DNA of 64,000 bases, from positions 3,686 through 67,685 of the forward strand of contig JAQUPG010000006.1 in assembly GCA_028716725.1 (NCBI GenBank), written 5' to 3'. A program made the translations under genes and the position numbers. The stretch is from Patescibacteria group bacterium (GTDB lineage: Bacteria; Patescibacteriota; Patescibacteriia; Patescibacteriales; JAQTRU01). The notes beneath the pieces were generated by a model. It had not been told where the DNA came from and made no database searches. It saw only the letters and a program-made list of their open reading frames with translations. How positions within the stretch are numbered: position 1 is the stretch's first letter; every line of letters begins with the position of its first letter. Shown here piece by piece: positions 129 through 26,898 of the stretch.

Positions 129-2828
129 TTACGGTTTTTTATTAAATAGCTTCTCTGCCTTCCCTACGGCTTGCTCGGCAAGATAAATCTTTTCGCCATA
201 CTTTATTAAATTTTCAGCTACTGCCCCATAGGATGAATGGGTGGATTTTGAGGGGTCTTTAGGGTCGGTAAACACAACTTCATCATACCCCATATCTTTT
301 AATTTTTTTACCCATTTCCTTAAGCTTTCTTTATCTTCATAGATATTCATGGCCGCATTGGCATTAAATCTTCCTCGAGCAATTTCATTATTCACCTCGT
401 CAATCCACTCAACAAAATTCATTTTTCCTAGCTCATTTAAAACAAATTTCCTCTTGATTTTCAGCTCCCCGTCTTCATCCGTATATTCTTCCTGAAGTTC
501 ATCACCCCAGCCGATTCTATTAGTTCGCCTTATTGATCCTTCCGGATCGGTTTTTCTGAATTCTCCCCTAGCCCTCTTTTTTTGCGTTAAATGATCCCTT
601 TGGTAAAGCATGCCATTTTTTAAGCCAATAGTTTCCGTATAATTCCAATGCCCTTTATCCTTAGCGATCGTGCTTACTTCCCTTTGTAGGGCGTAAGCCT
701 GCTGTTCGCTCATACCTAATCCCTCAATAAAGGCCTGATCAATTAAAGTATTAAGTCCTTCCGCTCCCTGAGTCAAAAATCGTCCTTTTTTAAATTTTAT
801 CTTCCCGTCTTCACCCATTACATCTTTTGTGCTTCGCCAATTCTGTATCATCTCATTTAAATGATAAACGCTGGCGGCATGAGTAAGAATCGCCGCACCT
901 GTACCCTGGTCATCGCTGGCAATAGCATTTTTTAGCATAGCGAATAATTCTTCCTCATTATCATTATCTCCTAATTTCTTTTTGCCTTCCGAGATTAAAG
1001 CTTCCCTCGCCCGATCAGCATAAAAAGTTTGAACTGGCTGTAGCCGATCTAACTTTTTTTCTAAACCGAATATTTCCTCCTCCCTTTCCGCTTTTTCCTT
1101 TTTAGTTACTTTATTCTTTTCCATATCCTCTATCCTCAACCTGCCCTTTTTCAATTCCTCTCCTAATGCCTTCACTCTCACCATATCCCCGGCCTTGTAA
1201 GCTTCTTTTATTTGTCTTTTTATTCCCGTTGAGCGTCCTGCTTCTATACTGGTTTCGCTATCAATTTCTTCCTGCGTAAAACCCGCCCTCTTCTTCTTTG
1301 TTTCAATTTCATCAAGCAATCTCTTCCTTTTTTCCGGAGAACTGCTTACTATATCCTCCGCTCTTTGAAACCCTTTGGCCCATAAAAATCCATGAGCCAA
1401 AGAACTTGTCAAATCTTCCGACACTCCTAAACCTTTAACTAAGCCAAGCATCCCGCCTTTCTTTAAGCCCTCGCTTGAAGCCACCATCCCTTTGGCTTCA
1501 TCCTCTTCTCCTTTTGCTTTCAAGGCCCTGCCGATTCCTTCAATCATTTTTGTCGGCCTCGTTTCTAAACCATACAGAGTGCTGGCCAAACCGGCGCCAA
1601 ACTTACCAAAGCGTCCGCCTCGAGAATCCCATTCTACTCTCTTGGTTATATTGCCTTCCGCATCTTTCTCCTCTACTACTCTTCGATTAGCAAAAAGTCC
1701 GGAAACTGCGCCGGATTTTAATTTTAGCGCCGCCCAATTTCCGCCGGTTTTAAGGCCCCAGCCCGCGGCTTTAGCCCCGCCGTTAGCAGCTTTAGCTATA
1801 AATCCGCCCATCTGCTGAGCCACCATCAGCCCGCCGACTAAAAGGCCAATAACAATAATAAATTTTTGTAAATTATTCTGGCAAAAAAACGCTCCGATGC
1901 CAGCGCATAATTCATCGTTACCAACCATATACATTTTTTCAGAGCTTTTACTGGCCGTAGTAAGAGCCAACCAGATAAAAAAGGCCAAAGCCGGGCCGAT
2001 TACCAATTGCTTGGTAAAATCTTCCCAAATTTGCCCGGTATATTTTTGGAGAGGCGGAAAGGCAAAACCTAAAAAAACAAACGGGGATAAAATCGTATAA
2101 ATCCAAAGCATTATCACCCTCATTACTAAAACGGCTAGCATGGCCGCGATAACAATTACGGTAATAATTGCCGCTATTACGCCCATTATTACGGCTAAAG
2201 AAGTTGCCCAGGGCGTAATACCATAGGACTTTAAATTAGCTTCTAAAGCTTCGCTAGTTGAAAGACTATGCCATAAATCCACCCTGAACATATCCATAAA
2301 CCATCCTCCGCCCTCTTTAAAGCTGCTGGCAAAAGTTAGCATTATAACCTGGGAGAAATCTATTAAAAGTCCAAAAATGGTTTTTGAAAAATTTATCAGA
2401 ACCGCCATTATTAACAATTTCGGCAACATTTTTTTTAAACTATAATTTTCTACCCGCAAAATCGTGGCAAAGGAAATAATTAACAAAATTAAGATAAAAA
2501 ACATGTTGCATAAATCCCTAACCATTACCCAGCCATCAATAACCGTCGGCACATCAATAATGTGGTTAAATTGGGCTACCCCTATTAAAATTTGGACTAA
2601 AAGAGTTAAAACTAATCCCAAAACTGCTGTTAATATATAAGCTATAACCCCCAATACTAAGGCTAAAGTAGTGCCCAAACCTCCGACTGCCAATGTCCCA
2701 GCCCATTGACCAGCAGTTTGGGCAAATACTAATCTGACTTTATAGAAAAGGATAAAAATAAAACAAAACAAAACTATGGCTAAAATAGTTTTTCTTTCTT
2801 TTTTAATTTTACTTAAAAACTTTTTCAT
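129..2828 (-). CDS. TrbL/VirB6-like polytopic membrane protein with ~560-aa charged soluble C-terminal domain
   Basis: 899-aa ORF. The N-terminal ~340 aa hold a signal-like segment plus about 7 hydrophobic helices; the first are Gly/Ala-rich (AGQWAGTLAVGGLGTTLALVLGVIAYILTAVLGLVL), as I recall for TrbL/VirB6. The C-terminal half is K/E/R-rich with no Walker A. The family call is recollection, not a search. Confidence 0.5.
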   Translation of the reverse strand: MKKFLSKIKKERKTILAIVLFCFIFILFYKVRLVFAQTAGQWAGTLAVGGLGTTLALVLGVIAYILTAVLGLVLTLLVQILIGVAQFNHIIDVPTVIDGWVMVRDLCNMFFILILLIISFATILRVENYSLKKMLPKLLIMAVLINFSKTIFGLLIDFSQVIMLTFASSFKEGGGWFMDMFRVDLWHSLSTSEALEANLKSYGITPWATSLAVIMGVIAAIITVIVIAAMLAVLVMRVIMLWIYTILSPFVFLGFAFPPLQKYTGQIWEDFTKQLVIGPALAFFIWLALTTASKSSEKMYMVGNDELCAGIGAFFCQNNLQKFIIVIGLLVGGLMVAQQMGGFIAKAANGGAKAAGWGLKTGGNWAALKLKSGAVSGLFANRRVVEEKDAEGNITKRVEWDSRGGRFGKFGAGLASTLYGLETRPTKMIEGIGRALKAKGEEDEAKGMVASSEGLKKGGMLGLVKGLGVSEDLTSSLAHGFLWAKGFQRAEDIVSSSPEKRKRLLDEIETKKKRAGFTQEEIDSETSIEAGRSTGIKRQIKEAYKAGDMVRVKALGEELKKGRLRIEDMEKNKVTKKEKAEREEEIFGLEKKLDRLQPVQTFYADRAREALISEGKKKLGDNDNEEELFAMLKNAIASDDQGTGAAILTHAASVYHLNEMIQNWRSTKDVMGEDGKIKFKKGRFLTQGAEGLNTLIDQAFIEGLGMSEQQAYALQREVSTIAKDKGHWNYTETIGLKNGMLYQRDHLTQKKRARGEFRKTDPEGSIRRTNRIGWGDELQEEYTDEDGELKIKRKFVLNELGKMNFVEWIDEVNNEIARGRFNANAAMNIYEDKESLRKWVKKLKDMGYDEVVFTDPKDPSKSTHSSYGAVAENLIKYGEKIYLAEQAVGKAEKLFNKKP

Positions 2829-2832
2829 TTTT

Positions 2833-3843
2833 TTAGGCTCCCTTTAATAAATCAAATAAAGCCTTGGCTGCTCCCCAACTCAAGCCCGTCAAACCCCCGA
2901 CAACATCTAAAACATCTTTGGCTTTTTCTATTAAGTTCCCTCTCCTAAAATCAACAATCATAACAATTAGAGCTAACTCCGTGGCAATAATAGCTAAAAC
3001 AATCAAATCTAAAATTAACAACCCTATCACCTCAACGATTCCAAAAGCGGTGCCGCCTATATTTTTAGCGCTGCTCTCGCCGGCCACAATTTTCGGCATC
3101 CATTCTTCCCCCAACTTGCAAAAGAGATCGGGAAATACCCATCTTAAAAAAACGTGCATATTTATATAAATCAAGGTCAGACCAAAACTGTCAATTAAAT
3201 TCCCCCAAGCGGCTTTCAGCAACCGATTCGTTCCTTGCTTAACCGGGTCCATCACTTTCTTCTCTATTTCTTCCTTGGCCCTTCTCTTTAAATTCGCCTG
3301 CATTTTTAACCTATTAATCCTCTTCCCCCAACTCTCTTCGCCTTCTTGATCTTCTTCACCTTCCGGACTTTTTTTCGCTTCCCCTTCCTTTTCTCCGTCT
3401 TTTTCTTTATTCTTTTCTTCTTTATTTTCCTCTTCCTGCCCGGCCATTAACCGGCTATCTAAATCACCGGCCGCGCCCATTGGCTTGCCCCCGGCAGCTT
3501 TAGCGGAAGGGGGCTGTCCGCCGGCAAAAGCCGTTGGTCCGGCGCCAGACCCTCCTCTCCCCGACTGGCCAGGCCCGGAATTATCTCCACCGGCCTGGCT
3601 GCGGCGGCTAGCCGGGAGCGGCCTTTCCGGCCTAACTGGCCGGCCCAGATTATCTCTGCTCGACCCGTCTGCCGTTTTTCTGTCTCTCCCCATGCCGCCC
3701 ACTCCGCTGGCTAAACTCATTAAATCATCAAGTGAATTGTTTCCCCCATTTCTTCTCTCTTGTCGTAATTTACTAGCCGCTGAAGCTTCATCTTCTTGAT
3801 TATCCAATTTTCTTTTATCATCAATTGTGGCTGGCTCAGGCAT
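2833..3843 (-). CDS. membrane protein with long disordered G/P/S/E/K-rich N-terminal region and two C-terminal TM helices
   Basis: 336-aa ORF whose stop lies 4 nt before the VirB6-like start. Low-complexity N-terminal 180 aa. Hydrophobic segments LIDSFGLTLIYINMHVFL and FGIVEVIGLLILDLIVLAIIATELALIVMIV. Confidence 0.7.
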   Translation of the reverse strand: MPEPATIDDKRKLDNQEDEASAASKLRQERRNGGNNSLDDLMSLASGVGGMGRDRKTADGSSRDNLGRPVRPERPLPASRRSQAGGDNSGPGQSGRGGSGAGPTAFAGGQPPSAKAAGGKPMGAAGDLDSRLMAGQEEENKEEKNKEKDGEKEGEAKKSPEGEEDQEGEESWGKRINRLKMQANLKRRAKEEIEKKVMDPVKQGTNRLLKAAWGNLIDSFGLTLIYINMHVFLRWVFPDLFCKLGEEWMPKIVAGESSAKNIGGTAFGIVEVIGLLILDLIVLAIIATELALIVMIVDFRRGNLIEKAKDVLDVVGGLTGLSWGAAKALFDLLKGA

Positions 3844-3917: not shown

Positions 3918-6900
3918 TTACTTTTCCTTTACTTTTATCGTGCCGGAGAATGGCTCACTGTCGGTATAGCCCCAATTGTCTTTTATGGCCACTGTTGGCT
4001 GGATTAAACAATAGCCCGTATCTCCTTCGGCGCCGCAAGTTATGCTTGTGCCGGTTTTGCCTGCTTTATTCCTTAAATCCCAATAACTGTATAAATGATA
4101 AACCGAGTGCGGAGTTTTTTCGTCCGGCCGGTGGTTCATCTCCACTCCGGAAACAACCGTAGTCCCCCCATCGCCCCAATTAACTTCATATCTTACTAAT
4201 GGCAATTGATTAACATCAACTGCCGTATTAAAGGTTAAATTGGCAAAACCATTTTTAATAATCGTAGTTTCACCTGTCTCCACATTATTAACTTTTACGT
4301 GACCTATATTCGGATTTGAACCGTCAATCGGCGTCCAATTAGCAAACCCGCTGTCAGGAATATACCGGCCCGCGCCTTCGCAAGTGCCAATCTGGCACTC
4401 GCCCACGGAATCAGCCGTAGTACAATCCGTATTAGTGCTGCAAATTTTTGTTTTTGAGGGATCATTGCTGCATTGACTGCAGGGCTTAATTTCCGCTTCT
4501 AATCTTGAACATGGCTGCCCGCCATTCTGCCCGCCGACACAGGCATATAATCCGTCACCCGTGTTTTCTATACATTGAGGATCGCCGGTATCAAGCCCAC
4601 AGCATCTTTTCCCGTTATTTATTTTATAAACCTTCACACAAAAATCATCGGTTACAACACACCCATCTTTAATGCCATTCGTATCAGGAGCGCATTCGAT
4701 TCCCGGATTTTCACCCCCGATACATTTTTCCGAAAGACAAGTCCCCGGGCCAACATCCTTACATTTCCCAGAAAATGGCGTGCAATGGCCGGGATTCATT
4801 GGGCAATCAGCGCTTACAGTGCAATCTTGGCCGATCCTACTTCCCCCATCGCAATACCGCAGGCATGTGCCGCTGCCTGCCGAACAAGGACTATTATCAT
4901 AACAGCTTATGCTATTATCATTGGAACATACGCCTTGGGGACAGGAGAAATCGCCTTCACAACTGGAAGCGTTATGAATATCACAAGAATTGCCATCTAA
5001 ATCACCATTTACGCATCTATAGGTTTGGCATGGGGCATCCCGGTCATCGGCTTCCATATCACAAAAAACATTAATATTATCACATCTCCATATTGGACAA
5101 TCGCCATCAACAGAACAATTTTGTTCGTGTTTATTTGAATCACTACTGCATACCTTTTTACATATTCCACCGTAGCAACAATTAGTGCCAGAACCAGCGG
5201 TTGTTTTTACGGTTGAATTGCATTTGTATTCTCCGGTGAAATTGCAATCATCCGGAGTGCCAGTGCCTTCTATGTCGCAAGTGGCGCCACTATTTGAGCA
5301 TTTACCCCCTATGCAGAAACTAAGAGGAGCGCAACAAAGCGACCCGCTAGCTGTTCCGCCGCACGTATACGCATCTGCTTCTTCATTATATCGGCAGTTT
5401 TCCGCAGGGCAAACGGGATTTCCATCTAACGGCGGAAAGCATTCTTGACCCTCGTTTCCCGATTGGTCATCACAAGAATAAAATTTATCTCCGGTCTGGG
5501 CGCAATAACCGCCGCCGGTACAAGTCTGCTTCACGGTGCAGGCTTGCTCGTTTAAACTGCAGACTCCGTCGCTTAACCTATAACGACCATAACTTTGGGC
5601 AAAAAGTTTCTTCAATTCACCTTCATAATAAATATTCGGCGGGTTAGTATCTGCATCAATATATAACTGCCCCATCCTGGACGAATTTTTATCCTGACTA
5701 TAATAAAGCGGCTGGATGCCCTCGTCGTTTTTAGTGTCCCATTCATAGGGATTGGCGGCCGGTTCGGGGTAAACGATTGTACCAAACGGCGAAGCATCGC
5801 TGCTGTAATCCGCTTTATCAAAATAACCGGAAATGCCCTGATTAATATTAACGGTAAAACCGCTCTTTCCACCAGACAAAAGCGACTGGTAAACCTTGTT
5901 TTCCCCGGCCGCGGAAACCGTCTGGATGAACTCTTGACAAACCGGCGCGATATTGATAATTGCCCGGCAAACAATCGTTTTGTCCTTAACATCTGCGTCG
6001 CCCGCCCAAATTTTCTGAACCCCAGGATTGCGCGTGGAATCATCAACATAAGTCGGCTTTCCCCACTTCAAATTGTCTTGATAGCCATAATCGAGCTCAT
6101 TGATACCCTTACCGGTCTCGACCGACGGAATCTCCTGAGGACCGAAATAATACCCTTTATTTAGTGTGGTATTAGGAATTTCGGCGCAACTCCAGCCGTA
6201 TTTGTCATCAATTGAAGTAGGCATCGGTTCCATATAAGCGGAATTAGCGGCCTCGATTAAAGCTTCTACATAACCATCCCCCGCCGGCCTATTGTAAGCT
6301 TTTAAAACAACAACATGCTTGCCAGGCGCAAACTTTTTCGTTGTTACCCCCCGCCTATAATCTCTACTCGTCCCGCCGTGAACCAAATCGCCATTATCAC
6401 CATTTTCTTTAACGCCGTCAATATAAAGCCAGAATTGATCATCGGCTATCGCTTTATATTTTAACTCTATTCCATCGGTTAAGCCGGTGCAATAATACAA
6501 GGGAAATTTTCCTTTATAGCCGGCACCTTCTTCAATGCCTTCACCTTTGACTTTATCAACCGGATACCAAAGCAGACAGGAATCGGTTGAGCCAGGACGC
6601 CGGTCGTATTCCAAACAATAGCCGGTTAAGCCCTTTTGGGTTACTCCGGAATTATCCACATAGCTGCAGGACAATGAGTCTTCCTTCGGATAAAGCCGGC
6701 AAGATTGCGAGGAATAAGTATTTTGTTTTATTTCCAGAGCCGGTTTTATTTTTATATCATCAAAATAAGCTAACCCGCCGAAAGCGGATGAAGTAACAAT
6801 TAATTTACCCGAAATTAAACCGGAAAGATTATCTAATTTTTTCTCAACATAACCGTCGTTCCCCGGCCCGACAATTAACGACCACCTATCATCGGATGTT

Positions 6901-9900
6901 TTCAGGCCGACAGTCCCGCCCGATAAACTCATAGTATTAATATAGGCGCTAACAACGTAAACCTTTGATTCAAAATTAATTTCCTCGCTGGCGATTGAGG
7001 TTCCGGAACTCATCTTTAAAATATTTCTGCCTTCGGGCGGAGAAAATCCTAAGGCGGCTTTAGCTTCGGCCGCATCAGTTATTACCTTAAATTTACTTTC
7101 ATCCCAGATGCCGCCGCCGGCATTGCTCCAGCCGACCGGATAACCGTTGCCACCCGCCATCTCAAACCCGCCGTTAGATAAACTGATTATATCGCCGACC
7201 TGTTCCATCTCTCCCAGAGGATAATAATTATTGCCCAAATCCCCGCCCTCATAGCCGAACTTTGAATAGCCGGTTAAATTGCTGATGAGGTTGGGATCAT
7301 CGCCGTCTTTAAATATCTGCTCGGCTTTATCACCTGTAGAAGCAATAAAGTTGCCGCAATTGCCATTATCGTCAAAGCTATTGCAAAGCCCGATGTCAAA
7401 ACAAACATTATTGCCGTTTTTATCCTTAATATAACTACGGCAAGCCAGCCACTGGTCGCAGACTCTATTGGGCGAAACTTTTACCGGCGAACCGTTGGCA
7501 TTGTTTTCTCCGCTTAAGCTTTTCTGCGGTGAAACGCCGTTCTTATCGTCAATGGTCAGATTCGCATCAAAATTCAACCCGGCTAAACCACTCCCGCTAT
7601 TCTGAGTGCGCTCATTAAGCAAAATACATCCCTGCTCAAAATCAACCAGGCCTTTGCAGGTGGTCTTATCTAATTCCTGCTTTAACCTATATTCAACTAT
7701 GGCTTTTTTAAGATTTAACTCTCCTGTAATGGTGCAATCGTTCCGACCGGAAGAATTGTTAAAAAATATAACTAAACCATTGCCAGAAACAGCCACTGAA
7801 CTTGCGGGACTATCTAAGGTATTATCTTCTTTCAATAAACGTAAAGACTGACTAGAACAATTTTTTATCGAATTGGTTCCAGCTCCTATCCCTTTTAATA
7901 TATAAAGAGTAGACGGCTCAAGACTTACTTGATCCTTATCTTTATAACTAGCACCCGTGGCTGGTTTGCTTATCGGGTCAATATATTCGCTGCAGCCTCC
8001 TTGGGCTGCCGGGCAGGTTCCGGCCCAGCCGCCTTCCGGCTGATAAACAGTCTGGCCCTCCCCGCCATAACCAAAAGTTTTTAAATCACTAGCCGGGCAG
8101 GGAGTATCTTGAGTTTCCAGCTGGCAAGTTTTATAACATTTTTTATTAAGGCATAGGTTGCTGCTGCCACAATCTTCATTTTTAACGCAGGTAGTTGGAC
8201 TATCTACTAAACAATCTTGATTTTTTAAACAAATTTTTCCGTCGTTGTCGCCGCATCTTTTTACTTTTTTCTTATACCAGCCCCAGCCGGTTTCGCTAGC
8301 TCCGGCAATTTGGCGCCATTCGCAAACCATATCGCCCGGGTCCTTGAAGAAAGAATTGCCATTTCCTACTCCCCAGGCCTGGCAGCCTTCCCCTTCCTTA
8401 TCGCATAAAATCTCGTGGTATTTGTCCGGATTATTTTTCAGATAAACATCGCCGTAAACTATTTCCTCCCCATATCTATAGGGCGAGCCGAAACGGCTGC
8501 AGCCCTTTTCCGCCTTATTGCATTGCTTGGTTTTGTCATAAACCACGTAAGTAAGACTATCCGCGGCTATTGTCACGACCGGATCAGTGGCCGAAGCCGA
8601 AGTTCCGGCTTCACTGGAATTTTGAGTGTCAATCATTAATTCGCAGCCCACGGCCGACTCCTGGCATAACCCGCTGAAGTTATGGAGATAATGCGTATTT
8701 TTCGCCCTGTCCTTATACTGGCCGCAGCCCAGCATATAAAGAGGGAAAGCATTGCCGTTTATATCCTGGTTGCAGGAAGCGGGCGTTGTCCATGAATTTT
8801 TTATAAGGTAATAACGGTCGATTATTTCCGTTAATCTTATATCGTCAATAAAGAAATTCCCGTTAGCCGCTATCGTTAAGCTTTCATCGGCGCCGGCCTC
8901 ATGGTTAAGTTTGGCTAAATTGAATTTATATAATTTCCATTCGCTGGTTAAAGCATCGGTTAAAACAACTTCTTCTGTCCCATTGCTGCCAGCGAGACTG
9001 ATTGAGTTAAATTTAGTCGCCCCGTCCTCTTTGGCAATAAAGCTTAAAACATAAGACCTTCCTTTCTGGACAGAAGCACCAACGGTCTTAGCGGTGGAAT
9101 TGCCGGTTGTTCTTAAAGAGTTCCCGCCGACAGTTAAGGCCTCGCTGGCAATGCCGCCCGTCCAGTCCTGGGTATTGCCCGGAAAATCATTGTTCAAAAT
9201 AATTCTCATGTTGCTGCCGCGGTTGCCGCTATATTCCCGGCAACCGGATTGAAAGGCCCCGCAGCTTTTGCCTTCGCCCGGAATAGCCATATAAACGGTT
9301 GAGTCGTCAGTCCGGCGATAAGCATGGCAATTATCGCTGCAGGAAATTGTCCTGGTATATAAATGATAAGAAACTTCGCCAGCTTTATTATAAAATTGGC
9401 GGCAGTCCGGATTATAATTCGGGTCAGTAGCAGGCAGATTATATTTTGTGGCATCGCATTCCGAGCTGTCAGCTGAAGTTACTTTGGGGTCATCGCCCTC
9501 TTTTTGCAAGTTAAAAACCTTTAACTGATAACCGCTTTCATCGCTTCCTTCCCAGGTATAAAATTCGGCGCAGGTTGAATCCGGTTTTATACATTGCCTT
9601 AAATAAGTATAATATTCTTTGCCTTCCCCGCCCTTGGCCACTTCGTCTAAATTAGTAAATTCATCGCAGCCAACCGCGTCAGCACTGCAAGTTTTAGCTT
9701 CACCGGGGATAAGATATTCTACAAAACTGGAAGCAAAATTAGTTTCAGCCTGGACATAAGTGTCAAAGCCGTCGCATTCCTGCAGGCAATAATCGCTAAT
9801 CGTAGTTTTAGCCGGAATGCTTATGCCGTCCGCCACTCCCGTATAGGCCTCGCAGCCGACATCAGCCGGCCGGCAGGTGCCTACAAACTTATTGCAAAGG

Positions 9901-12554
9901 GCGGGCGGGTCGGTTTGATCGCAACCCATATAGGCCGGAGCCAATTTTTCATAAACGACATTGACCGCTCCGTATTCTTTATAAGCTGTGGCTTTAAGCC
10001 CGATTTCAAATTGGATATTGTCAACATAAAATTCGACTTCGCCTGGCCCGTATCCATAAATATAAAATTCATTAGCCCCAATACTCTCATCGTTGTTTAA
10101 AGTTACAGCTATTCTCCCCCAACTTCCTTTCTCGGTTAATCCTTTCTCTCCCCAATCCGTGTCATTATTACCAATCGCTACCACTATTTGGCCTCCTTTT
10201 ACTAAATAAACATCTGCACTCAAAGTATAGGAAACTCCCGGCTCCATCATAAATCCTTTCGGGGTTATAGACACTTCGTTATAGTAGCTGGAAGAATGGT
10301 CATAGGAATACAAACCGCCCCTACCGCTTCCCATTGTGATATGTAGAATTTTTCCGGATCTACCCGGCGCATTATCTATAATTTGAGCCTGTAAATCAGT
10401 CCCCCCTTCCTGATATAACGGCCAATTATTAAGTTTAACCTCGCTTCCAGAAATGGAAGTAACGGAAACACTGTCGCCAACGGTATTATCTTCAAATCCG
10501 GAATTAACAACTAAATTGGTGCCTAGGCCGGATTTTGTCCTGATAAACTCGTGGCAACCCTCGTTTTCCTGCTTGCATCCCTCAACGCTTTGGTTGAAGT
10601 AAATCGAATCGGAACTGATCCAATCAACGGCATTGGTGCCGGAATCGTAGCTGGTAAAGGATGTGGCGTATCCTTTGCAACCGGCATTGTCTGGAGAACA
10701 ACCGCTATAATCCAAAGTGTTTTCCAAATAAGAAACGGTTTTCCCGTTTTGCCCGCGGAAAGTCTGGCAGGTATTATATTTAGGTTCGCAGGCCGCGGCC
10801 CCAAAATTCCAGGCCCGGCGCTCCTCTGTACAGTAGCCATAAGCTTCGCAGGAACCGTCTTGCCTTTCTTTAATGCAGCTTTGTTCGTCTGCGCAATAAT
10901 CATCGCTGCGGGCAACCGATCTTTCTTTGCCCCCCTCGCCGCCGTCAGCTATCTCGTCAGAAGTTATTTCCGGGCCGTAGCCTTCTTTGGCGCAAAAATT
11001 CTGCGGCGCCTTCAGAACCCAATTCGGGTCAACCAGACCGCGGCACCATCTCTCCCCGCCATCATCGTTATACCCGCGATAATTGTCGGTCGGGTCAAAG
11101 CAGGCAATCATTTTTCCTAAAATGGCATCTTTTAATTTGTCTTGATGGGAATGAATATATTCCGCCGCCAATTCCCAGCCAACCGGGATAATCCTGTATT
11201 TTCTTAAAATTATCATTGACCGGTAGGGATAACCCTGATTATAAACCGGCTCCATCGCCCCGGAACCACCGGACCTAAAGCCGAAAGGCCAGTCTTTCAG
11301 ATATCCCAAACTTATTGCCTCCCCCACCGTCTTTCTCTCTTCTATGGCCTGCCTGAAGCCCTCATCAATAACGCAATCGGTCGGTCCGGCTTTGCTTGGG
11401 GCAGGGCATGTTGATAGTTCGGCTAAAATATCATAATCCGCCCTGGTATTAAATCTGGGCTCTAATAATTGCCTTAAAGAATCATTGGCACCGGAAGTGG
11501 GGCTGGCTTCAAAATTAGCCAAGTTATTATAGTCAAAAGGGGAAGAGGCTGGCCCGACTTTTTCTCCCAGCTTCATCATTTTGGCATTAAAGGCGGCAAT
11601 CGCCAATTGGTTTATAAATATTTTAGAAGCGTCAACTAAGGCGTTGTTTGTAAACTTGCCAATATTGCTTAAAATATTCGCGCTGGATACCTCAAAAGAA
11701 GTCTTCGCCCAGCTGGGCAGGCTTTTTAAATTACCGGCTATGTCGGTCGGGTCAAGCCAGCCCCCGTTTGCCTGCAATTTTAATCCCTCTTCATCTAAAG
11801 TAGTTTTTGCCTTGTCCATCATTCCCGTTTGTAAAGTCAGGGCAATGCCCAAATCATTCCCCGCCGGATTAAATGATTGCTGGAAAATTTTTAAAAAGTC
11901 CGGCTGGCTCATAGCGGCCAATCTTTCATATTCGTTCTTCCAGTTATTTTTCATTTTTGACCAGGTACAATCCGGCTCTTTGGGCCGGTTCATATCCACC
12001 AAGCCCAGGCCTATTTTCATTTTAATATCAAGTTTCGGCTCGCATAAATTAAACTTAACATAACCGTTGTTTTGCCCTAAATCCTCTATAAACTGCCCCT
12101 TGGCCCTGTCTTCCATATTGCTTAGATATGTCTCCCAATTTTCCTTTATAAACAAAGAGCCCTGGCCTTTATTGCCCGTTGCCAGTCTGTTGGCGGCGTC
12201 ATAAGCCAATTTATTCAAAGTTGAGGTTATGGAATCCTGCAAAATCGAAGATCCGCTCTTAAGCGCAGCCTCTTTTGTCTTAGCCCATGACTTTTCCCAT
12301 TGAGACATTGCATCCCATTTTTCCTGCGCTGCCAGTCTGTCCGCCTCTGCCTTCTTTGCGTCTGCCTGCTGTAACGTTGTTTGCGTTTGTATTAATGCAT
12401 CTGTTGCCGGGGCAACAACTGTCATCTGCGCATAAACCGGTTCGGTTTTAAAAGAAAAAGAGGCAAATAAAAGCAAAAATATAATAATAAAACCAACAAT
12501 AAATAAAGATTTCGTTTTATTATATTTATTTACCTTTTTCTTTGGGGAAATCAT
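3918..12554 (-). CDS. giant secreted/surface protein (2878 aa), multi-domain, cysteine-rich, adhesin-like
   Basis: Uninterrupted 8.6 kb ORF with N-terminal signal anchor KSLFIVGFIIIFLLLFASFSF..VYA. Three beta-sandwich CBM4/9-like modules start N(S/N/G)(G/D)F(E/P) and end (V/I/F)DxI(Q/R/K): approx nt 10000-10520, 8830-9210 and 6750-7200. PA14-like stretch AIADDQFWLYIDG at approx 6250-6500. A ~395-aa block with 54 Cys by my count lies at approx 4370-5580. C-terminal PKD-like domain (YEVNWGDGG...HSVYHLYSY...AIKDNWGYT) at approx 3921-4310. Confidence 0.9.
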   Translation of the reverse strand: MISPKKKVNKYNKTKSLFIVGFIIIFLLLFASFSFKTEPVYAQMTVVAPATDALIQTQTTLQQADAKKAEADRLAAQEKWDAMSQWEKSWAKTKEAALKSGSSILQDSITSTLNKLAYDAANRLATGNKGQGSLFIKENWETYLSNMEDRAKGQFIEDLGQNNGYVKFNLCEPKLDIKMKIGLGLVDMNRPKEPDCTWSKMKNNWKNEYERLAAMSQPDFLKIFQQSFNPAGNDLGIALTLQTGMMDKAKTTLDEEGLKLQANGGWLDPTDIAGNLKSLPSWAKTSFEVSSANILSNIGKFTNNALVDASKIFINQLAIAAFNAKMMKLGEKVGPASSPFDYNNLANFEASPTSGANDSLRQLLEPRFNTRADYDILAELSTCPAPSKAGPTDCVIDEGFRQAIEERKTVGEAISLGYLKDWPFGFRSGGSGAMEPVYNQGYPYRSMIILRKYRIIPVGWELAAEYIHSHQDKLKDAILGKMIACFDPTDNYRGYNDDGGERWCRGLVDPNWVLKAPQNFCAKEGYGPEITSDEIADGGEGGKERSVARSDDYCADEQSCIKERQDGSCEAYGYCTEERRAWNFGAAACEPKYNTCQTFRGQNGKTVSYLENTLDYSGCSPDNAGCKGYATSFTSYDSGTNAVDWISSDSIYFNQSVEGCKQENEGCHEFIRTKSGLGTNLVVNSGFEDNTVGDSVSVTSISGSEVKLNNWPLYQEGGTDLQAQIIDNAPGRSGKILHITMGSGRGGLYSYDHSSSYYNEVSITPKGFMMEPGVSYTLSADVYLVKGGQIVVAIGNNDTDWGEKGLTEKGSWGRIAVTLNNDESIGANEFYIYGYGPGEVEFYVDNIQFEIGLKATAYKEYGAVNVVYEKLAPAYMGCDQTDPPALCNKFVGTCRPADVGCEAYTGVADGISIPAKTTISDYCLQECDGFDTYVQAETNFASSFVEYLIPGEAKTCSADAVGCDEFTNLDEVAKGGEGKEYYTYLRQCIKPDSTCAEFYTWEGSDESGYQLKVFNLQKEGDDPKVTSADSSECDATKYNLPATDPNYNPDCRQFYNKAGEVSYHLYTRTISCSDNCHAYRRTDDSTVYMAIPGEGKSCGAFQSGCREYSGNRGSNMRIILNNDFPGNTQDWTGGIASEALTVGGNSLRTTGNSTAKTVGASVQKGRSYVLSFIAKEDGATKFNSISLAGSNGTEEVVLTDALTSEWKLYKFNLAKLNHEAGADESLTIAANGNFFIDDIRLTEIIDRYYLIKNSWTTPASCNQDINGNAFPLYMLGCGQYKDRAKNTHYLHNFSGLCQESAVGCELMIDTQNSSEAGTSASATDPVVTIAADSLTYVVYDKTKQCNKAEKGCSRFGSPYRYGEEIVYGDVYLKNNPDKYHEILCDKEGEGCQAWGVGNGNSFFKDPGDMVCEWRQIAGASETGWGWYKKKVKRCGDNDGKICLKNQDCLVDSPTTCVKNEDCGSSNLCLNKKCYKTCQLETQDTPCPASDLKTFGYGGEGQTVYQPEGGWAGTCPAAQGGCSEYIDPISKPATGASYKDKDQVSLEPSTLYILKGIGAGTNSIKNCSSQSLRLLKEDNTLDSPASSVAVSGNGLVIFFNNSSGRNDCTITGELNLKKAIVEYRLKQELDKTTCKGLVDFEQGCILLNERTQNSGSGLAGLNFDANLTIDDKNGVSPQKSLSGENNANGSPVKVSPNRVCDQWLACRSYIKDKNGNNVCFDIGLCNSFDDNGNCGNFIASTGDKAEQIFKDGDDPNLISNLTGYSKFGYEGGDLGNNYYPLGEMEQVGDIISLSNGGFEMAGGNGYPVGWSNAGGGIWDESKFKVITDAAEAKAALGFSPPEGRNILKMSSGTSIASEEINFESKVYVVSAYINTMSLSGGTVGLKTSDDRWSLIVGPGNDGYVEKKLDNLSGLISGKLIVTSSAFGGLAYFDDIKIKPALEIKQNTYSSQSCRLYPKEDSLSCSYVDNSGVTQKGLTGYCLEYDRRPGSTDSCLLWYPVDKVKGEGIEEGAGYKGKFPLYYCTGLTDGIELKYKAIADDQFWLYIDGVKENGDNGDLVHGGTSRDYRRGVTTKKFAPGKHVVVLKAYNRPAGDGYVEALIEAANSAYMEPMPTSIDDKYGWSCAEIPNTTLNKGYYFGPQEIPSVETGKGINELDYGYQDNLKWGKPTYVDDSTRNPGVQKIWAGDADVKDKTIVCRAIINIAPVCQEFIQTVSAAGENKVYQSLLSGGKSGFTVNINQGISGYFDKADYSSDASPFGTIVYPEPAANPYEWDTKNDEGIQPLYYSQDKNSSRMGQLYIDADTNPPNIYYEGELKKLFAQSYGRYRLSDGVCSLNEQACTVKQTCTGGGYCAQTGDKFYSCDDQSGNEGQECFPPLDGNPVCPAENCRYNEEADAYTCGGTASGSLCCAPLSFCIGGKCSNSGATCDIEGTGTPDDCNFTGEYKCNSTVKTTAGSGTNCCYGGICKKVCSSDSNKHEQNCSVDGDCPIWRCDNINVFCDMEADDRDAPCQTYRCVNGDLDGNSCDIHNASSCEGDFSCPQGVCSNDNSISCYDNSPCSAGSGTCLRYCDGGSRIGQDCTVSADCPMNPGHCTPFSGKCKDVGPGTCLSEKCIGGENPGIECAPDTNGIKDGCVVTDDFCVKVYKINNGKRCCGLDTGDPQCIENTGDGLYACVGGQNGGQPCSRLEAEIKPCSQCSNDPSKTKICSTNTDCTTADSVGECQIGTCEGAGRYIPDSGFANWTPIDGSNPNIGHVKVNNVETGETTIIKNGFANLTFNTAVDVNQLPLVRYEVNWGDGGTTVVSGVEMNHRPDEKTPHSVYHLYSYWDLRNKAGKTGTSITCGAEGDTGYCLIQPTVAIKDNWGYTDSEPFSGTIKVKEK

Positions 12555-12782: not shown

Positions 12783-13457
12783 CTACTGGCTTTGCAAAAT
12801 CTCCTGATAGCTGGCCATTAAATCCGCATCGCTTATTTCATTCAAAGTTTCCTGGTCCATCCCTGATTCCAAAAGCATTTTCCTCAAAGCCGAGGCATCG
12901 CTTTGCCCCTCAAGCATTTTTTGCAAATCTTCTTCCTGCACCGAAGCCGGCACGTCCAAAGTTGCGCCCGTATTCAAATCCGGGATGGCCTGGCCGGAAA
13001 CGGGCTCCTCTTCCGCTGTACCCGCGGCAGGGCTGGTATCAATTAAAGTCGAGCAATCCCGGCCAGCCGGGCAATTCGGGTCGGTTCCGGTCCCAATTTC
13101 TTCCTTATCAGAAATGCCGTCGCTGTCGCTGTCTTCCAAATAAGGGGAAGTTTCATAAACATTAAGTTCATCCCAGTCTGTCAGCCTGTCGCCGTCCGTA
13201 TCCATTGTTTTAAGGGATTCCTGGCAATCCGGACCTTCGCAAGTGGCGGTGCTCCCGGGCGCTTCAGCCAAATTATAGGAAAAAGGACCATTAAGGCTTT
13301 CTTTTAATTGGGCCATCCACATAATAATTACAACCACGGCCAAAACCCCCAAAACCGCCACGGCGACTTTTTGGTTTTTGCCCAAACTTTGCCTCGTCCC
13401 CGGGCCTTGTTCCGGCTCCCCCTCATTTTTTAAATCATCATCATTATAATAATCCAT
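12783..13457 (-). CDS. single-pass membrane protein with thrombospondin type-3-like Ca-binding Asp repeats
   Basis: 224-aa ORF. TM helix VAVAVLGVLAVVVIIMWMA, then DTDGDRLTDWDELNVYETSPYLEDSDSDGISDKEEIGTGTDPNCP (DxDxDG-type repeats). Confidence 0.75.
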   Translation of the reverse strand: MDYYNDDDLKNEGEPEQGPGTRQSLGKNQKVAVAVLGVLAVVVIIMWMAQLKESLNGPFSYNLAEAPGSTATCEGPDCQESLKTMDTDGDRLTDWDELNVYETSPYLEDSDSDGISDKEEIGTGTDPNCPAGRDCSTLIDTSPAAGTAEEEPVSGQAIPDLNTGATLDVPASVQEEDLQKMLEGQSDASALRKMLLESGMDQETLNEISDADLMASYQEILQSQ

Positions 13458-21221: not shown

Positions 21222-22607
21222 TTAACTCTCTAATTCTTTCTTAACATATTTATTCTGCCACTCGGAAACTACCTTGTCTCTTGCCTGGTTCGTCGCCGCT
21301 ATTTTTATTGCTTCTACTGTCCCCTTCACTAATGCCATTAATCCTTTGCCTCTAGCTTTTCTTATGTGCTCTAAAGCATCAAATTTATGCTCCCCGGACA
21401 CGGCATCAAAAACGTCTGGGTCAATCACGGAGAAAAAATATTCCGGATTTTCCTCTGTCGGCAACTTTACAAAAACATTGCCGGTATTTATCACATTTCC
21501 TCTTGCTTCCTTAAAGCCGGCGTCAGAATCAGAAATGTCCAAAACAACGCCGTCTGTTTTTTTCATGGCTTCAAGGCGCCTTAAAAAAACCTTCCAGGCT
21601 TCTCTAAAGCCCGGATCATCCTTTTTTATTTCCGAAGGAAGCTCTTTCACGGTTTGGCCTTTAGCATAATCCTGGCGGACCATTCTTTTATAATTTCCTT
21701 CCTTATCTTTATAAATCGTCATGTCGTTAAAAACTATCCCGGTCTTTACATTCCCGCCTTCCGGCTGCTCGTGGTCTAAGCGCAAACTAATAGCATGCAT
21801 TTCCCGCATCAGCTTTAAGACCGAGGCGAAATCAACATCATGCCTTTCTTTTGTTATTTTAATAACCTGCGGCCTTAATTCTTTTCCTAAAAAAATACTG
21901 TTTTTATTTTCCGCTCCTTCGGATTTTACGGTCGCTTCTTGCCCGGCGACTTCATCAAGATAATTCTGGACATCCTCGGCGATTGTCGGAATGCCGAACA
22001 TCTCGACCATCACTTCTTCCATCCTTGTCCTGTCCGCCAAAGAAGCGCCTTTAAACTCTTTATAAAGTTCATCTAATACCGCAATCCTTTCTTTAATTTC
22101 CTCCGGCGAAATATTTTTATCAATGTAAAGCAGATTGTAGGGCTGCTTAGACTTGGCAATAAAATTCTCAAGTTTCCCTTCCCCTTCCCGGTGCTTTTCC
22201 AATAACTCGGCTCTAAGGCCTTCTACGGTCCCTGACTGGCTGGCGGCCAGAGCTTTCTCCAATAGATGCGGAGGAATATCTGTTTCCTCGGAAATTTCCA
22301 TCATTTCTCCATGCTTTTCCGCCTCAATTTCCTGGTCATAGCCAATAATCCGGGTAAATAACCCCAATAATTTTTCGCGCGTCTCCGGATTTTCTATTTC
22401 CTCAATATTTCTCTGCATGGCCTCCTTGGTTTCAGCACTTAAACCCTCTTGTTTTCTTTCGGAAACACTATCAATTATCTCCCGTATTTGCTCTATCTCC
22501 GGCATTGGCTCCCCGCTTTCCTCTTCGGGATTAGATCGTTCTCTCTCATTACTTTCATCTTTAACTTCGGTATCTCTATTTTTTATTCCTTCTTCCATAT
22601 TGCCCAT
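21222..22607 (-). CDS. hypothetical acidic protein, 461 aa
   Basis: Long ORF tightly packed between a small ORF and xth. Glu-rich helical N-terminal half and a mixed alpha/beta C-terminal half. No family recognised. Confidence 0.7.
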   Translation of the reverse strand: MGNMEEGIKNRDTEVKDESNERERSNPEEESGEPMPEIEQIREIIDSVSERKQEGLSAETKEAMQRNIEEIENPETREKLLGLFTRIIGYDQEIEAEKHGEMMEISEETDIPPHLLEKALAASQSGTVEGLRAELLEKHREGEGKLENFIAKSKQPYNLLYIDKNISPEEIKERIAVLDELYKEFKGASLADRTRMEEVMVEMFGIPTIAEDVQNYLDEVAGQEATVKSEGAENKNSIFLGKELRPQVIKITKERHDVDFASVLKLMREMHAISLRLDHEQPEGGNVKTGIVFNDMTIYKDKEGNYKRMVRQDYAKGQTVKELPSEIKKDDPGFREAWKVFLRRLEAMKKTDGVVLDISDSDAGFKEARGNVINTGNVFVKLPTEENPEYFFSVIDPDVFDAVSGEHKFDALEHIRKARGKGLMALVKGTVEAIKIAATNQARDKVVSEWQNKYVKKELES

Positions 22608-23496: not shown

Positions 23497-24195
23497 ATGG
23501 AAAACGGGCAAAAACATTGGTATGAAAAGTGGTGGGGAATTCTGCTGATTCTTTTTTTAACTTTAACCGCTATAGTTTTAGTGGCCCTGGGTTTTTATAT
23601 TGCCGACCTGACCGGAAGAATTAAGGGCGGAACAACGGCAAATGGGCAATTGCTGGCAGAAATTTCCGATTATAAAACAGCTAAAGCCAACCCGGTAATA
23701 ACCGGGGCTAATAATTACTGGCTAGGCTCGGCCAAGCCAAAAATAACGATTGTGGAGTTTGCCGACTTTGATTGCCAAAATTGTAAAAATTCCTTTCCTA
23801 ATATCCGCGAAATTAGCTTAAATTACAAAAATGATGTTAAAATAATATTCAGGGATTTTCCCGTCTACGAGAACTCAATAAACTTGGCTTTAGCCGGGCG
23901 CTGCGCCGGAGAACAAGGGCTGTTCTGGCTGATGCATGACAAGCTTTATGCCCGGCAGGGAAACTTTAGCCCGGAAGAATTGCCGAATTTTGCTAACCAA
24001 ATCGGAGCGGATGTTAACAAATTTAATAATTGCCTAAGCAACGAAAAATATTTAAGCGACATAAAAAAAGATTATGCGGACGGGCAGTCCATGGGAATAA
24101 CCGGCACGCCCACCTGGTTTATAAACGGCTATAGAATTGAGGGGGACATTCCCCATGATTTATTTATCCAGATAATTGAAGAGTTAATAAAATAA
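23497..24195 (+). CDS. membrane-anchored DsbA-family thiol:disulfide oxidoreductase
   Basis: N-terminal TM WWGILLILFLTLTAIVLVALGFYIA. Thioredoxin-fold CxxC (FADFDCQNCK) and GTPTWFING near the C-terminus. Confidence 0.8.
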   Translation: MENGQKHWYEKWWGILLILFLTLTAIVLVALGFYIADLTGRIKGGTTANGQLLAEISDYKTAKANPVITGANNYWLGSAKPKITIVEFADFDCQNCKNSFPNIREISLNYKNDVKIIFRDFPVYENSINLALAGRCAGEQGLFWLMHDKLYARQGNFSPEELPNFANQIGADVNKFNNCLSNEKYLSDIKKDYADGQSMGITGTPTWFINGYRIEGDIPHDLFIQIIEELIK

Positions 24196-25482: not shown

Positions 25483-25612
25483 AAAAGATACCAATATACG
25501 AATGAGTGCGAATGATACGAATCTATACTAATTGACTTTAAAAAATATTGTCAGCATATTCGTATTTATTAGTATTATTAGCATTATTCGTATATTAGTA
25601 TCTTGTCATTTT

Positions 25613-26794: not shown

Positions 26795-26825
26795 CCCCCT
26801 TGATAAAGGGGGCCAGGGGGATTTT
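26795..26825 (+). repeat. C/G hairpin plus G-rich tail element (family A)
   Basis: ccccctt-gata-aaggggg followed by ccagggggatttt. Other copies at 47779, 56034, 62022, 43138 and 34633. Confidence 0.85.
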
Positions 26826-26850
26826 AAAAGTTAAACCTCCCCTACCCCTC

Positions 26851-26871
26851 CCTGCCTACCGGACAGGCAGG
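26851..26871. repeat. CCTGCCT hairpin
   Basis: cctgcct-accggac-aggcagg. A related cctgcctg-tcgg-caggcagg lies at 30503-30522, after porB. Confidence 0.7.
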
Positions 26872-26898
26872 CTTTCGAAGGAGGGCATACATAATAAT

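What the first reader, a model, noticed from the sequence alone, without database searches (positions are those of the whole stretch)
3918..12554. Giant protein architecture: three CBM-like sandwiches, PA14-like stretch, 54-Cys block, C-terminal PKD-like domain
Read directly from the translation, three modules share start/end signatures. They are NSGFEDNTVG...EFYVDNIQFE, NNDFPGNTQDW...NFFIDDIRLTE and SNGGFEMAGGNGYPVGW...LAYFDDIKIKP. An ADDQFWLYIDG stretch resembles PA14. A ~395-aa region (nt ~4370-5580) contains 54 Cys by my count, arranged in short CxxxxC-type repeats. The last ~130 aa resemble PKD (WGDGG...H.Y...DNWG). Cys-rich linkers also separate the N-terminal modules. The combination suggests a glycan-binding, heavily disulfide-bonded extracellular fibre.
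Basis: partly seen in the sequence, partly recalled or inferred. Interest (0 to 1): 0.55.

Follow-up and report, generated by a model that had tools for sequence, protein, structure and literature searches.

The report
Giant cysteine-rich lectin protein beside T4SS
This 2,878-residue gene encodes an exported, disulfide-rich protein with three sugar-binding-type modules, from a large uncharacterised family of ultra-small (Patescibacteria) bacteria that almost always sits at the head of their type IV secretion genes, making it a candidate for the missing host-contact part of that machine.

Summary
Window 3918-12554 (-) is one intact 2,878-aa ORF, every quoted motif is present, and aa 2325-2729 contain exactly 54 Cys.

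- The three modules are homologous to each other and to CBM4/9/16/22 jelly-rolls.
- The 'PA14-like' stretch matches no PA14 profile or solved structure. It is a cassette found only in the six closest relatives.
- The C-terminal domain models as a generic Ig-like sandwich. PKD membership is not shown.

The protein has a Sec-type signal peptide and no other hydrophobic segment. Of the 72 Cys outside the 54-Cys block, 61 are at least 90% conserved, and all of them lie in the linkers rather than in the CBM modules.

Relatives occur in 257 species-level genomes, and 1,624 representative clusters match the N-terminal domain. All are unnamed 'hypothetical' Patescibacteria proteins.

The gene lies in a conserved block: TSP3-repeat protein, giant gene, ~200-336-aa membrane protein, ~810-930-aa polytopic protein (weak VirB6-like call), then PrgI, a TraC-like gene and VirB4. 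In this genome VirB4 lies ~13 kb downstream on the same strand.

The best reading is a glycan-binding surface adhesin or spacer working with the Patescibacteria T4SS. That functional link is inferred from gene order only.

The parts
12429..12554 (-). Sec-type signal peptide, aa 1-42 (K-rich n-region, hydrophobic aa 17-35, VYA|Q cleavage-type site)
   Evidence: Read from the translation. It is the only hydrophobic segment in the protein. The same n/h/AxA-like layout is seen in relatives. Cleavage is inferred, not shown.
11058..12428 (-). Conserved N-terminal domain, aa 43-499, predicted mostly alpha-helical, no known relatives (motifs KFNLCEP, YPYRSMIILRKYRIIPVGWE)
   Evidence: Conserved in ~all 120 relatives. 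A profile of it finds 1,624 representative clusters, and the domain sits at aa ~50-500 of a giant protein in nearly all of the best 150. No Pfam hit and no PDB hit. The AF2 model has pLDDT 46.6 and is unusable. Foldseek gives nothing.
10506..11057 (-). Cys-rich linker L1, aa 500-683 (12 Cys, all at least 90% conserved; C-x6-GC hairpin motifs)
   Evidence: It shares a ~70-aa unit with L2 and L3 by hhalign (57-84% probability).
9999..10505 (-). CBM-like module 1, aa 684-852 (0 Cys)
   Evidence: Pfam CBM_4_9 E 2.4e-4, below the gathering score. hhalign to module 2 gives 97.8% probability, E 9e-13.
9201..9998 (-). Cys-rich linker L2, aa 853-1118 (16 Cys, 15 conserved)
8820..9200 (-). CBM-like module 2, aa 1119-1245 (0 Cys)
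   Evidence: Pfam CBM_4_9 E 2.5e-8, 34.8 bits against a cut-off of 25.9. The profile hits xylanase CBM22 4xup at 6e-5 and laminarinase CBM4 1gui at 1.2e-4. The whole-protein profile hits 4xup at 2e-7.
7185..8819 (-). Cys-rich linker region L3, aa 1246-1790 (29 Cys, 23 conserved)
   Evidence: No Pfam hit and no PDB hit.
6735..7184 (-). CBM-like module 3, aa 1791-1940 (0 Cys)
   Evidence: No Pfam hit. The profile hits the hyaluronate-lyase CBM 4d0q at 1.5e-4, CBM16 3oeb/2zey at 5e-4, and CBM4-2 3jxs/1k42. hhalign to modules 1 and 2 gives 92-93% probability.
6483..6734 (-). Conserved Cys-containing segment L4, aa 1941-2024
5958..6482 (-).
   Evidence: Present only in the 6 closest relatives. This slot is 7-309 aa long across the family. 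No PA14 hit in Pfam or PDB. The AF2 model is beta-rich here with pLDDT ~55-70.
5565..5957 (-). Conserved segment M, aa 2200-2330
   Evidence: Found in 91 of 120 relatives. No known relatives.
4368..5564 (-). Variable cassette V2, aa 2331-2729: the 54-Cys block
   Evidence: 54 Cys. Shared by only ~13-19 of 120 relatives. This slot is 20-573 aa long across the family and is Cys-rich in several lineages. No Pfam or NCBIfam hit. No DNA tandem repeat.
3918..4367 (-).
   Evidence: Present in ~105 of 120 relatives. AF2 pLDDT is ~80-89 with about 10 strands. Foldseek gives only weak generic Ig-like hits. The PDB profile search hits designed Ig at E 0.02. PKD_4 is hit by 1 of 22 relatives at E 0.077.
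12783..13457 (-). Upstream partner gene: 224-aa single-pass membrane protein with bacterial TSP3 (Ca-binding type) repeats
   Evidence: Pfam TSP3_bac E 6.5e-5. TM segment at aa 31-49. Directly upstream of the giant gene in 65 of 67 loci and in divergent loci.
2833..3843 (-). Downstream gene 1: 336 aa, disordered N-terminal half and hydrophobic C-terminal part, no Pfam hit
   Evidence: It starts 74 bp after the giant gene. A homologue lies downstream in 35 of 49 loci.
129..2828 (-). Downstream gene 2: 899 aa with ~7 hydrophobic segments in the first 340 aa plus a large hydrophilic C-terminal domain ('extended VirB6'-like layout)
   Evidence: It is 48% identical to the L002 809-aa protein, which carries a precomputed weak TrbL_3 hit. 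That hit was not reproduced in my own hmmscan. It lies downstream on the same strand in 39 of 43 loci.

Best explanation
The gene encodes a Sec-exported extracellular protein of about 2,835 mature residues.

Its conserved core has four parts:
- a family-specific, probably helical N-terminal domain;
- three repeats of [double C-x6-GC hairpin linker + CBM4/9/22-type jelly-roll];
- two further conserved segments (L4 and M);
- an Ig-like C-terminal sandwich.

Two slots near the C-terminal end accept lineage-specific cassettes. In this lineage they hold a beta-rich insert and a 54-Cys block.

The conserved cysteines, all in the linkers, most likely form disulfides that stiffen the chain into a long stalk presenting the lectin-type modules and the variable tip.

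The gene heads the conserved Patescibacteria T4SS locus. I infer that the protein works with that machine, and with the Cys-tailed VirB2-like pilins encoded in this window, as the host-contact adhesin or spacer. In this model it binds glycans of the host cell envelope and the variable cassettes tune host specificity.

Shown: the architecture, export signal, Cys conservation, CBM homology, family size and gene order.

Inferred: disulfide bonding, glycan binding, and any physical or functional coupling to the T4SS.
For: Export. There is a single N-terminal hydrophobic segment followed by a VYA|Q site, and no other TM segment.

Cysteines.
- 61 of the 72 Cys outside V2 are at least 90% conserved among 39 sequences at 40-69% identity.
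- All lie outside the CBM modules.
- 129 of 188 full-length relatives have an even Cys count, against 50% expected.
- A DsbA-like thioredoxin gene lies at 23497-24195.

CBM homology.

Family size.
- 369 clusters at 90% identity.
- 257 species genomes.
- 1,624 clusters at 50% identity match the N-domain profile.

Gene order across 82 loci, all on the same strand.
- TSP3 gene directly upstream in 65 of 67.
- Polytopic ~810-930-aa gene downstream in 39 of 43.
- One or more of the 515-aa, PrgI, TraC-like or VirB4 genes within the flank in 28 of 42.

Distant relative L002. The full series is giant, 206 aa, 809 aa (weak TrbL_3), 284 aa, 515 aa, PrgI (E 1.9e-13), TraC-like, VirB4.

This window's own genome (GCA_028712785.1). 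The order is giant, 336 aa, 899 aa, 308 aa, five metabolic genes, 496 aa, PrgI, TraC-like, VirB4, all on one strand.

Divergent members keep the block even with insertions.

Spacing in the window. The gaps are 74 bp and 4 bp, with no terminator-like site after the giant gene.

The window also encodes two T4SS_pilin proteins with Cys-rich tails.

Literature.
- The T4SS is essential for epibiotic growth in a cultivated relative (PMC10633639).
- No adhesin was detected for Patescibacteria T4SSs (PMC12102498).
Against: - The link to the T4SS rests on gene order alone. The unrelated housekeeping genes LeuRS and KsgA are nearly as conserved upstream (39 of 48 and 55 of 61), so part of the synteny may simply be inherited.
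- In 3-4 of 43 loci no VirB6-like gene follows within 9 kb.
- In this genome five metabolic genes separate the two halves of the cluster.
- The VirB6 call for the 899-aa protein rests on topology and one weak precomputed hit that I could not reproduce.
- No ligand-binding residues were analysed. CBM-type jelly-rolls can also bind proteins or act as spacers.
- About 80% of the protein has no detectable relative of known function, and both AF2 models were poor.
Confidence: 0.5

Rival explanations
1. It is a general cell-surface adhesin or envelope protein of these bacteria with no functional tie to the T4SS. Its position next to the T4SS genes would reflect slow genome rearrangement in small, syntenic CPR genomes.
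For: LeuRS and KsgA, which have nothing to do with secretion, are conserved upstream almost as often. PMC12102498 also notes KsgA near virB4. The cluster is broken by insertions in several genomes. Large Cys-rich exported proteins are common in CPR genomes without a stated T4SS link (PMC4736985).
Against: Several loci have lost LeuRS/KsgA upstream but keep the downstream membrane genes (L008, L022, L027, L031, L076). All genes of the block are on the same strand, tightly spaced, and encode membrane or exported proteins.
Confidence: 0.25
2. It is an enzyme. The conserved N-terminal domain would be an unrecognised glycan- or cell-wall-cleaving catalytic domain, and the CBM modules would target it to substrate. 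It would fill the role of the VirB1-type wall hydrolase that most Patescibacteria T4SS loci seem to lack.
For: CBM4/9/22 modules are typically appended to glycoside hydrolases, and all PDB hits are from such enzymes. The N-domain has invariant acidic and aromatic residues such as W415-E416 (window protein numbering: W460-E461) and D189 (D234). PMC12102498 reports few VirB1 homologues and says other glycosidases may fill the role.
Against: A 21-sequence profile of the N-domain has no similarity to any Pfam family or solved structure, including lysozymes, transglycosylases and glycoside hydrolases. A catalytic domain at the membrane-proximal end of a 2,800-aa stalk is an odd layout.
Confidence: 0.12
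3. It is a structural part of the secretion machine itself, comparable in role to CagY of the Helicobacter Cag system: a rigid disulfide-braced stalk or sheath spanning the cell wall and S-layer, rather than an adhesin.
For: The conserved core is long (aa ~100-2000) and highly conserved, including its Cys pattern, as expected for a structural part. It sits at the head of the locus.
Against: There is no homology to any T4SS component. There is no membrane anchor after signal-peptide cleavage. The lectin-type modules and hypervariable cassettes fit recognition better than scaffolding.
Confidence: 0.08

Closest known systems
CBM4/9/16/22 carbohydrate-binding modules (Pfam CBM_4_9, PF02018), e.g. 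xylanase CBM22 (PDB 4xup, 1dyo), laminarinase CBM4 (1gui), ManA CBM16 (2zey)
   Same: The three modules match these jelly-rolls by Pfam and by profile searches of PDB. They share the N-x-F-E...W start and the Y/F-I-D-D-I-x-L end.
   Different: Here they are not attached to any recognisable glycoside hydrolase. They sit between conserved Cys-hairpin linkers in a 2,878-aa protein. The ligand is unknown, and modules 1 and 3 fall below Pfam's threshold.
PrgB and other surface adhesins encoded at the head of Gram-positive conjugative T4SS operons (pCF10 prgA-prgB-prgC)
   Same: A large exported protein gene placed at the start of a monoderm-type (PrgI/VirB4) T4SS cluster. The proposed role is contact with the partner cell.
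   Different: There is no sequence similarity and no polymer-adhesin domain hit. There is no LPXTG sorting signal at the C-terminus. The protein is Cys-rich and about twice the size. PMC12102498 found no PrgB-like adhesin in Patescibacteria.
Large cysteine-rich exported proteins reported in CPR genomes (Peribacteria, PMC4736985)
   Same: Large size, signal peptide, several per cent Cys, proposed attachment role, and variation between lineages.
   Different: Homology to those proteins was not tested. This family has a fixed architecture and a fixed position next to T4SS genes, neither of which is described in that paper.
CagY of the Helicobacter pylori Cag T4SS (PMC10706595)
   Same: The largest protein of a T4SS locus. 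From my own knowledge, it has repeat regions containing conserved Cys.
   Different: CagY is a VirB10 homologue of a diderm system. No homology was detected here.

Membership tests
CBM_4_9 / CBM4-9-16-22 jelly-roll superfamily | Match to the family profile at or above the curated threshold | tested here: met
   Whole protein scores 34.8 bits against a cut-off of 25.9, with the best stretch at aa 1118-1212. Module 1 alone scores 21.9 bits, below the cut-off, and module 3 has no Pfam hit.
CBM_4_9 / CBM4-9-16-22 jelly-roll superfamily | Similarity of each module to solved CBM structures and to each other | tested here: met
   Module 2 profile hits 4xup at 6e-5 and 1gui at 1.2e-4. Module 3 profile hits 4d0q at 1.5e-4 and 3oeb at 5e-4. 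hhalign gives 97.8% for modules 1 and 2, 91.9% for 1 and 3, and 92.6% for 2 and 3.
CBM_4_9 / CBM4-9-16-22 jelly-roll superfamily | Binds a carbohydrate ligand through a cleft or face lined with aromatic residues | not testable with these tools
   No confident model of the modules was made. The invariant residues (W, Y, F, D at the module ends) look like core residues rather than binding residues.
PA14 domain (PF07691) | Match to the PA14 profile or to solved PA14 structures | tested here: not met
   No Pfam hit at E up to 10 for aa 1941-2200. None of 7 relatives hit PA14. The profile search of PDB gave only an S-layer protein at E 0.2 and a collagenase domain at E 3.2.
PA14 domain (PF07691) | PA14 beta-barrel fold | tested here: inconclusive
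   The AF2 model is beta-rich here but has pLDDT of only ~55-70. There is no PA14 structure among the top 50 Foldseek hits.
PKD domain (PF00801 / PF18911) | Match to a PKD profile or to solved PKD domains | tested here: not met
   No Pfam hit for aa 2720-2878. Only 1 of 22 relatives gives PKD_4, at E 0.077. The profile search of PDB gave only designed Ig domains at E 0.02.
PKD domain (PF00801 / PF18911) | Seven-strand Ig-like sandwich with the WDFGDG...HxY...D..G motif spacing | tested here: inconclusive
   The model has pLDDT 80-89 and is a sandwich of about 10 strands plus a helix. Foldseek gives only weak generic Ig-like hits with E at least 0.012 and no PKD. WGDGG, H.Y and DNWG are present but with much longer spacing and a Cys loop.
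T4SS-associated surface adhesin (PrgB type) | Encoded within or at the head of a VirB4-containing T4SS gene cluster | tested here: met
T4SS-associated surface adhesin (PrgB type) | Homology to PrgB/antigen I/II adhesin domains and an LPXTG wall anchor | tested here: not met
   No such Pfam or NCBIfam hit. The C-terminus is ...GTIKVKEK with no LPXTG or TM segment.
T4SS-associated surface adhesin (PrgB type) | Needed for mating-pair or host contact | not testable with these tools
   Requires genetics or microscopy in a cultivated member.
Sec-exported protein | N-terminal basic region, hydrophobic core and small-x-small cleavage site | tested here: met
   MISPKKKVNKYNKTKS / LFIVGFIIIFLLLFASFSF / KTEPVYA|Q. 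It is the only hydrophobic segment and the layout is conserved in relatives. No dedicated signal-peptide predictor was available.
Myxococcus cysteine-rich repeat and other named Cys-rich repeats | Match to the repeat profile | tested here: not met
   NCBIfam and Pfam gave no hit for the Cys block or the linkers. The only trace is Dumpy DPY at E 0.68.

The most novel reading that the evidence does not exclude
This family is the long-sought host-contact element of the Patescibacteria type IV secretion system in the Falkowbacteria/Parcubacteria-type lineages. In this reading it is a secreted, disulfide-braced stalk. Its novel N-terminal domain docks on the T4SS membrane proteins or on the Cys-tailed VirB2-like pilins. 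Its CBM modules and swappable C-terminal cassettes recognise host envelope glycans and set host range.
Probability: 0.35. Interest if true: 0.75.

Novelty: new variant of a known kind. Interest (0 to 1): 0.6.

Why it matters
- Patescibacteria make up a large share of bacterial diversity and live attached to other microbes.
- In the one genetically tractable member, the T4SS is essential for growth on the host (PMC10633639). What it contacts and how is unknown, and a 2025 survey found no adhesin for these systems (PMC12102498).
- A conserved, very large, lectin-bearing exported protein at the head of that locus gives a concrete candidate to test.
- Its variable cassettes offer a possible marker of host specificity.
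- About 80% of the protein, including a ~450-aa N-terminal domain present in more than 1,600 sequence clusters, has no known relative. The family is also a target for structure determination and for a new Pfam entry.

Tried and rejected
- AF2 of aa 46-690 with a 28-row alignment gave pLDDT 46.6. Its Foldseek search returned only E > 1 helical noise, so the N-domain fold remains unknown.
- AF2 of aa 1941-2878 gave pLDDT 54, and only the last ~135 residues are usable. Foldseek gave no hit at E <= 0.001.
- phmmer of the whole protein against PDB found nothing.
- The large-database search with the V1 ('PA14-like') alignment returned nothing, not even the six relatives the alignment was built from. 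I treat it as an uninformative null.
- The N-domain profile search of 1.84 billion representatives lists only the best 150, all from the same family. More distant relatives in other architectures could not be inspected.
- A self-BLAST of the Cys block for internal repeats returned no off-diagonal hits for the real sequence or for any of 40 shuffles, so the test as set up was uninformative. TRF found no DNA repeat there.
- The 336-aa downstream protein was compared with the window's T4SS pilin and shows no similarity.
- The weak TrbL_3 hit for the VirB6-like protein was not reproduced.
- Two Logan contigs carrying the gene are 100% identical to the window, so they give no strain-variation data.
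- Four literature searches and the held supplements of PMC12102498 gave no description of this family.
- An S-layer protein was considered and set aside because of the high Cys content. That rests on general knowledge and was not tested.
Full report
**Observation**

The region 3918-12554 is a single open reading frame on the minus strand, with an ATG start and 2,878 codons.

- The stretch nt 4370-5580 corresponds to aa 2325-2729 and contains exactly 54 cysteines.
- The protein as a whole has 126 Cys (4.4%).
- The cysteines in the block are irregularly spaced, mostly 5-11 residues apart. There is no DNA-level tandem repeat, so 'CxxxxC repeats' is only a loose description.

**Organism and source**

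- The neighbours are KsgA, an MFS transporter, RtcB, LeuRS, POR subunits, MurJ, LepA, RecJ and SecF, with G+C around 41%.
- An exact look-up places the window in contig JAQTQT010000001.1 (326 kb) of assembly GCA_028712785.1; the closest full-length relatives that carry a name are 'Patescibacteria group bacterium' MAGs.

**Anatomy**

The N-terminus has a lysine-rich start, one hydrophobic stretch (aa 17-35) and a VYA|Q site. This is the layout of a Sec signal peptide. There is no other hydrophobic segment and no LPXTG motif.

Coverage by 120 relatives divides the protein as follows:

- a conserved core, aa ~100-2000;
- a variable slot V1 (aa 2025-2199 here; 7-309 aa across the family);
- a conserved segment M (aa 2200-2330);
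- a second variable slot V2 (aa 2331-2729 here; 20-573 aa across the family);
- a conserved C-terminal domain (aa 2730-2878).

The 54-Cys block is V2 and is shared by roughly 13-19 of 120.

**The three modules**

- Pfam finds CBM_4_9 in module 2 above the gathering score, in module 1 below it, and nothing in module 3.
- Profile-profile comparison links all three at 92-98% probability.
- Profiles built from relatives hit solved CBM22, CBM4, CBM16 and hyaluronate-lyase CBM structures at E 6e-5 to 5e-4.
- A whole-protein profile hits only these CBMs in the entire PDB.

So 'three CBM-like sandwiches' stands.

**The linkers**

- All cysteines of the core lie in the linkers. The three CBM modules have none.
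- 61 of the 72 Cys outside V2 are at least 90% conserved among 39 sequences at 40-69% identity.
- The motif C-x6-G-C-x-E/D-Y/F recurs ten times.
- Linkers L1, L2 and L3 share a ~70-residue unit. The core is therefore three repeats of [Cys-hairpin linker + CBM].
- 129 of 188 full-length relatives have an even number of Cys.
- A DsbA-like gene lies in the window.

Both of the last two points fit disulfide pairing. Disulfide pairing is inferred, not shown.

**PA14 and PKD**

- For V1, no PA14 match appears in Pfam for this protein or any of seven relatives. None appears in a profile search of PDB or among Foldseek hits.
- The model in V1 is beta-rich but of low confidence.
- For the C-terminal domain, the model is reasonably confident (pLDDT 80-89). 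It is a sandwich of about ten strands.
- Foldseek gives only weak, generic Ig-like hits for that model (E at least 0.012).
- The sequence profile of the C-terminal domain finds only designed Ig domains.
- One relative in 22 touches PKD_4 at E 0.077.

'Ig-like sandwich' is fair. 'PKD' is not demonstrated.

**N-terminal domain**

- It is the most characteristic part of the family and has no Pfam or PDB relative.
- Its AF2 model was unusable.
- A profile of it finds 1,624 clusters among 1.84 billion representatives. In nearly all of the best 150 it lies at aa ~50-500 of a similar giant protein.

**Family and context**

- Relatives are 2,000-3,500 aa 'hypothetical proteins' from Patescibacteria, Falkowbacteria and Parcubacteria MAGs. 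They occur in 257 species-representative genomes.
- Some records carry other taxon labels, such as 'uncultured Gammaproteobacteria'. Many of those loci show the same LeuRS-KsgA-TSP3 flank as the Patescibacteria-labelled ones, so I suspect mislabelling; I did not check this.
- Across 82 loci, a ~220-aa TSP3-repeat membrane protein lies directly upstream in 65 of 67.
- A ~810-930-aa polytopic membrane protein lies downstream on the same strand in 39 of 43.
- Further T4SS genes fall within the available flank in 28 of 42.
- In a 40%-identical relative the series is giant, 206 aa, 809 aa (weak TrbL_3), 284 aa, 515 aa, PrgI, TraC-like, VirB4.
- In this window's own genome, beyond the left edge, the series is 308 aa, five metabolic genes, 496 aa, PrgI, TraC-like, VirB4, all on the giant gene's strand.
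- Two divergent members keep the block despite insertions.
- The window also holds two VirB2-type T4SS pilin genes with Cys-rich tails.

**Interpretation**

The protein is an exported, probably disulfide-braced stalk carrying lectin-type modules and a variable distal end.

Its fixed position at the head of the T4SS locus makes a role as that machine's host-contact adhesin or spacer the most likely one. Three published facts support this. T4SSs of monoderms rely on surface adhesins (PMC12102498). No adhesin has been found for Patescibacteria systems (PMC12102498). The T4SS is essential for epibiotic growth in a cultivated member (PMC10633639).

The weakness is that the link rests on gene order alone. 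The housekeeping genes LeuRS and KsgA are conserved nearby almost as often.

The rivals are:

- a surface adhesin unrelated to the T4SS;
- an enzyme whose novel N-domain cleaves wall or glycan polymers;
- a structural stalk of the machine.

**Novelty**

No paper in the searchable library describes this family. Large Cys-rich exported proteins in CPR bacteria and adhesins at T4SS loci are both known kinds. The specific architecture, the novel N-domain and linkers, and the T4SS-linked position are not described. I therefore rate it a new variant of a known kind, with moderate to good interest.

Noticed in passing
window 26800-27924 (+) and 27936-28994 (+): Two adjacent genes (374 and 352 aa) match Pfam T4SS_pilin (E 1.8e-10 and 2.9e-8). 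Each carries a long Cys-rich C-terminal tail (24 and 19 Cys). They are wedged between the pyruvate:ferredoxin oxidoreductase alpha gene (25532-26788) and the TPP-binding beta gene (29557-30489).
   Followed up: partly
window 23497-24195 (+): A DsbA-like thioredoxin (Thioredoxin_4 E 8e-25, DSBA E 3e-15) that could oxidise the many exported cysteines of the giant protein and the pilins.
   Followed up: no
window 12783-13457 (-): A 224-aa single-pass membrane protein with bacterial TSP3 (calcium-binding type) repeats. It is the most tightly linked neighbour of the giant gene (65 of 67 loci) and its role is unknown.
   Followed up: partly
L084 13690-19202 (source contig, beyond the window's left edge): Five metabolic genes (PfkB kinase, AdoHcy hydrolase, SAM synthetase, a CTP_transf_like protein, EamA/flavokinase) interrupt the T4SS cluster between the 308-aa gene and the 496-aa/PrgI/TraC-like/VirB4 genes. 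The distant relative L002 has no such insertion.
   Followed up: no
L001 12141-12524 and L002 17780-18208: A small PDDEXK_3 nuclease-family gene is inserted directly after the giant gene in some relatives but not in this window.
   Followed up: no
window 12466-12506: A 20-bp AT-rich tandem repeat (2.1 copies) lies inside the signal-peptide coding region. It probably just reflects the Ile/Phe/Leu-rich hydrophobic core.
   Followed up: no
window aa 1531-1640 of the giant protein (nt ~7635-7964): In the family consensus this part of linker L3 has a CBM-like start (N-x-D-F...D-G-W) and end (ELKKA-x-VDY). It may be a degenerate fourth module. hhalign against the three modules was not significant.
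   Followed up: partly
window 21222-22607 (-) and 36375-37136 (-): Two ORFs (461 and 253 aa) have no Pfam match.
   Followed up: no
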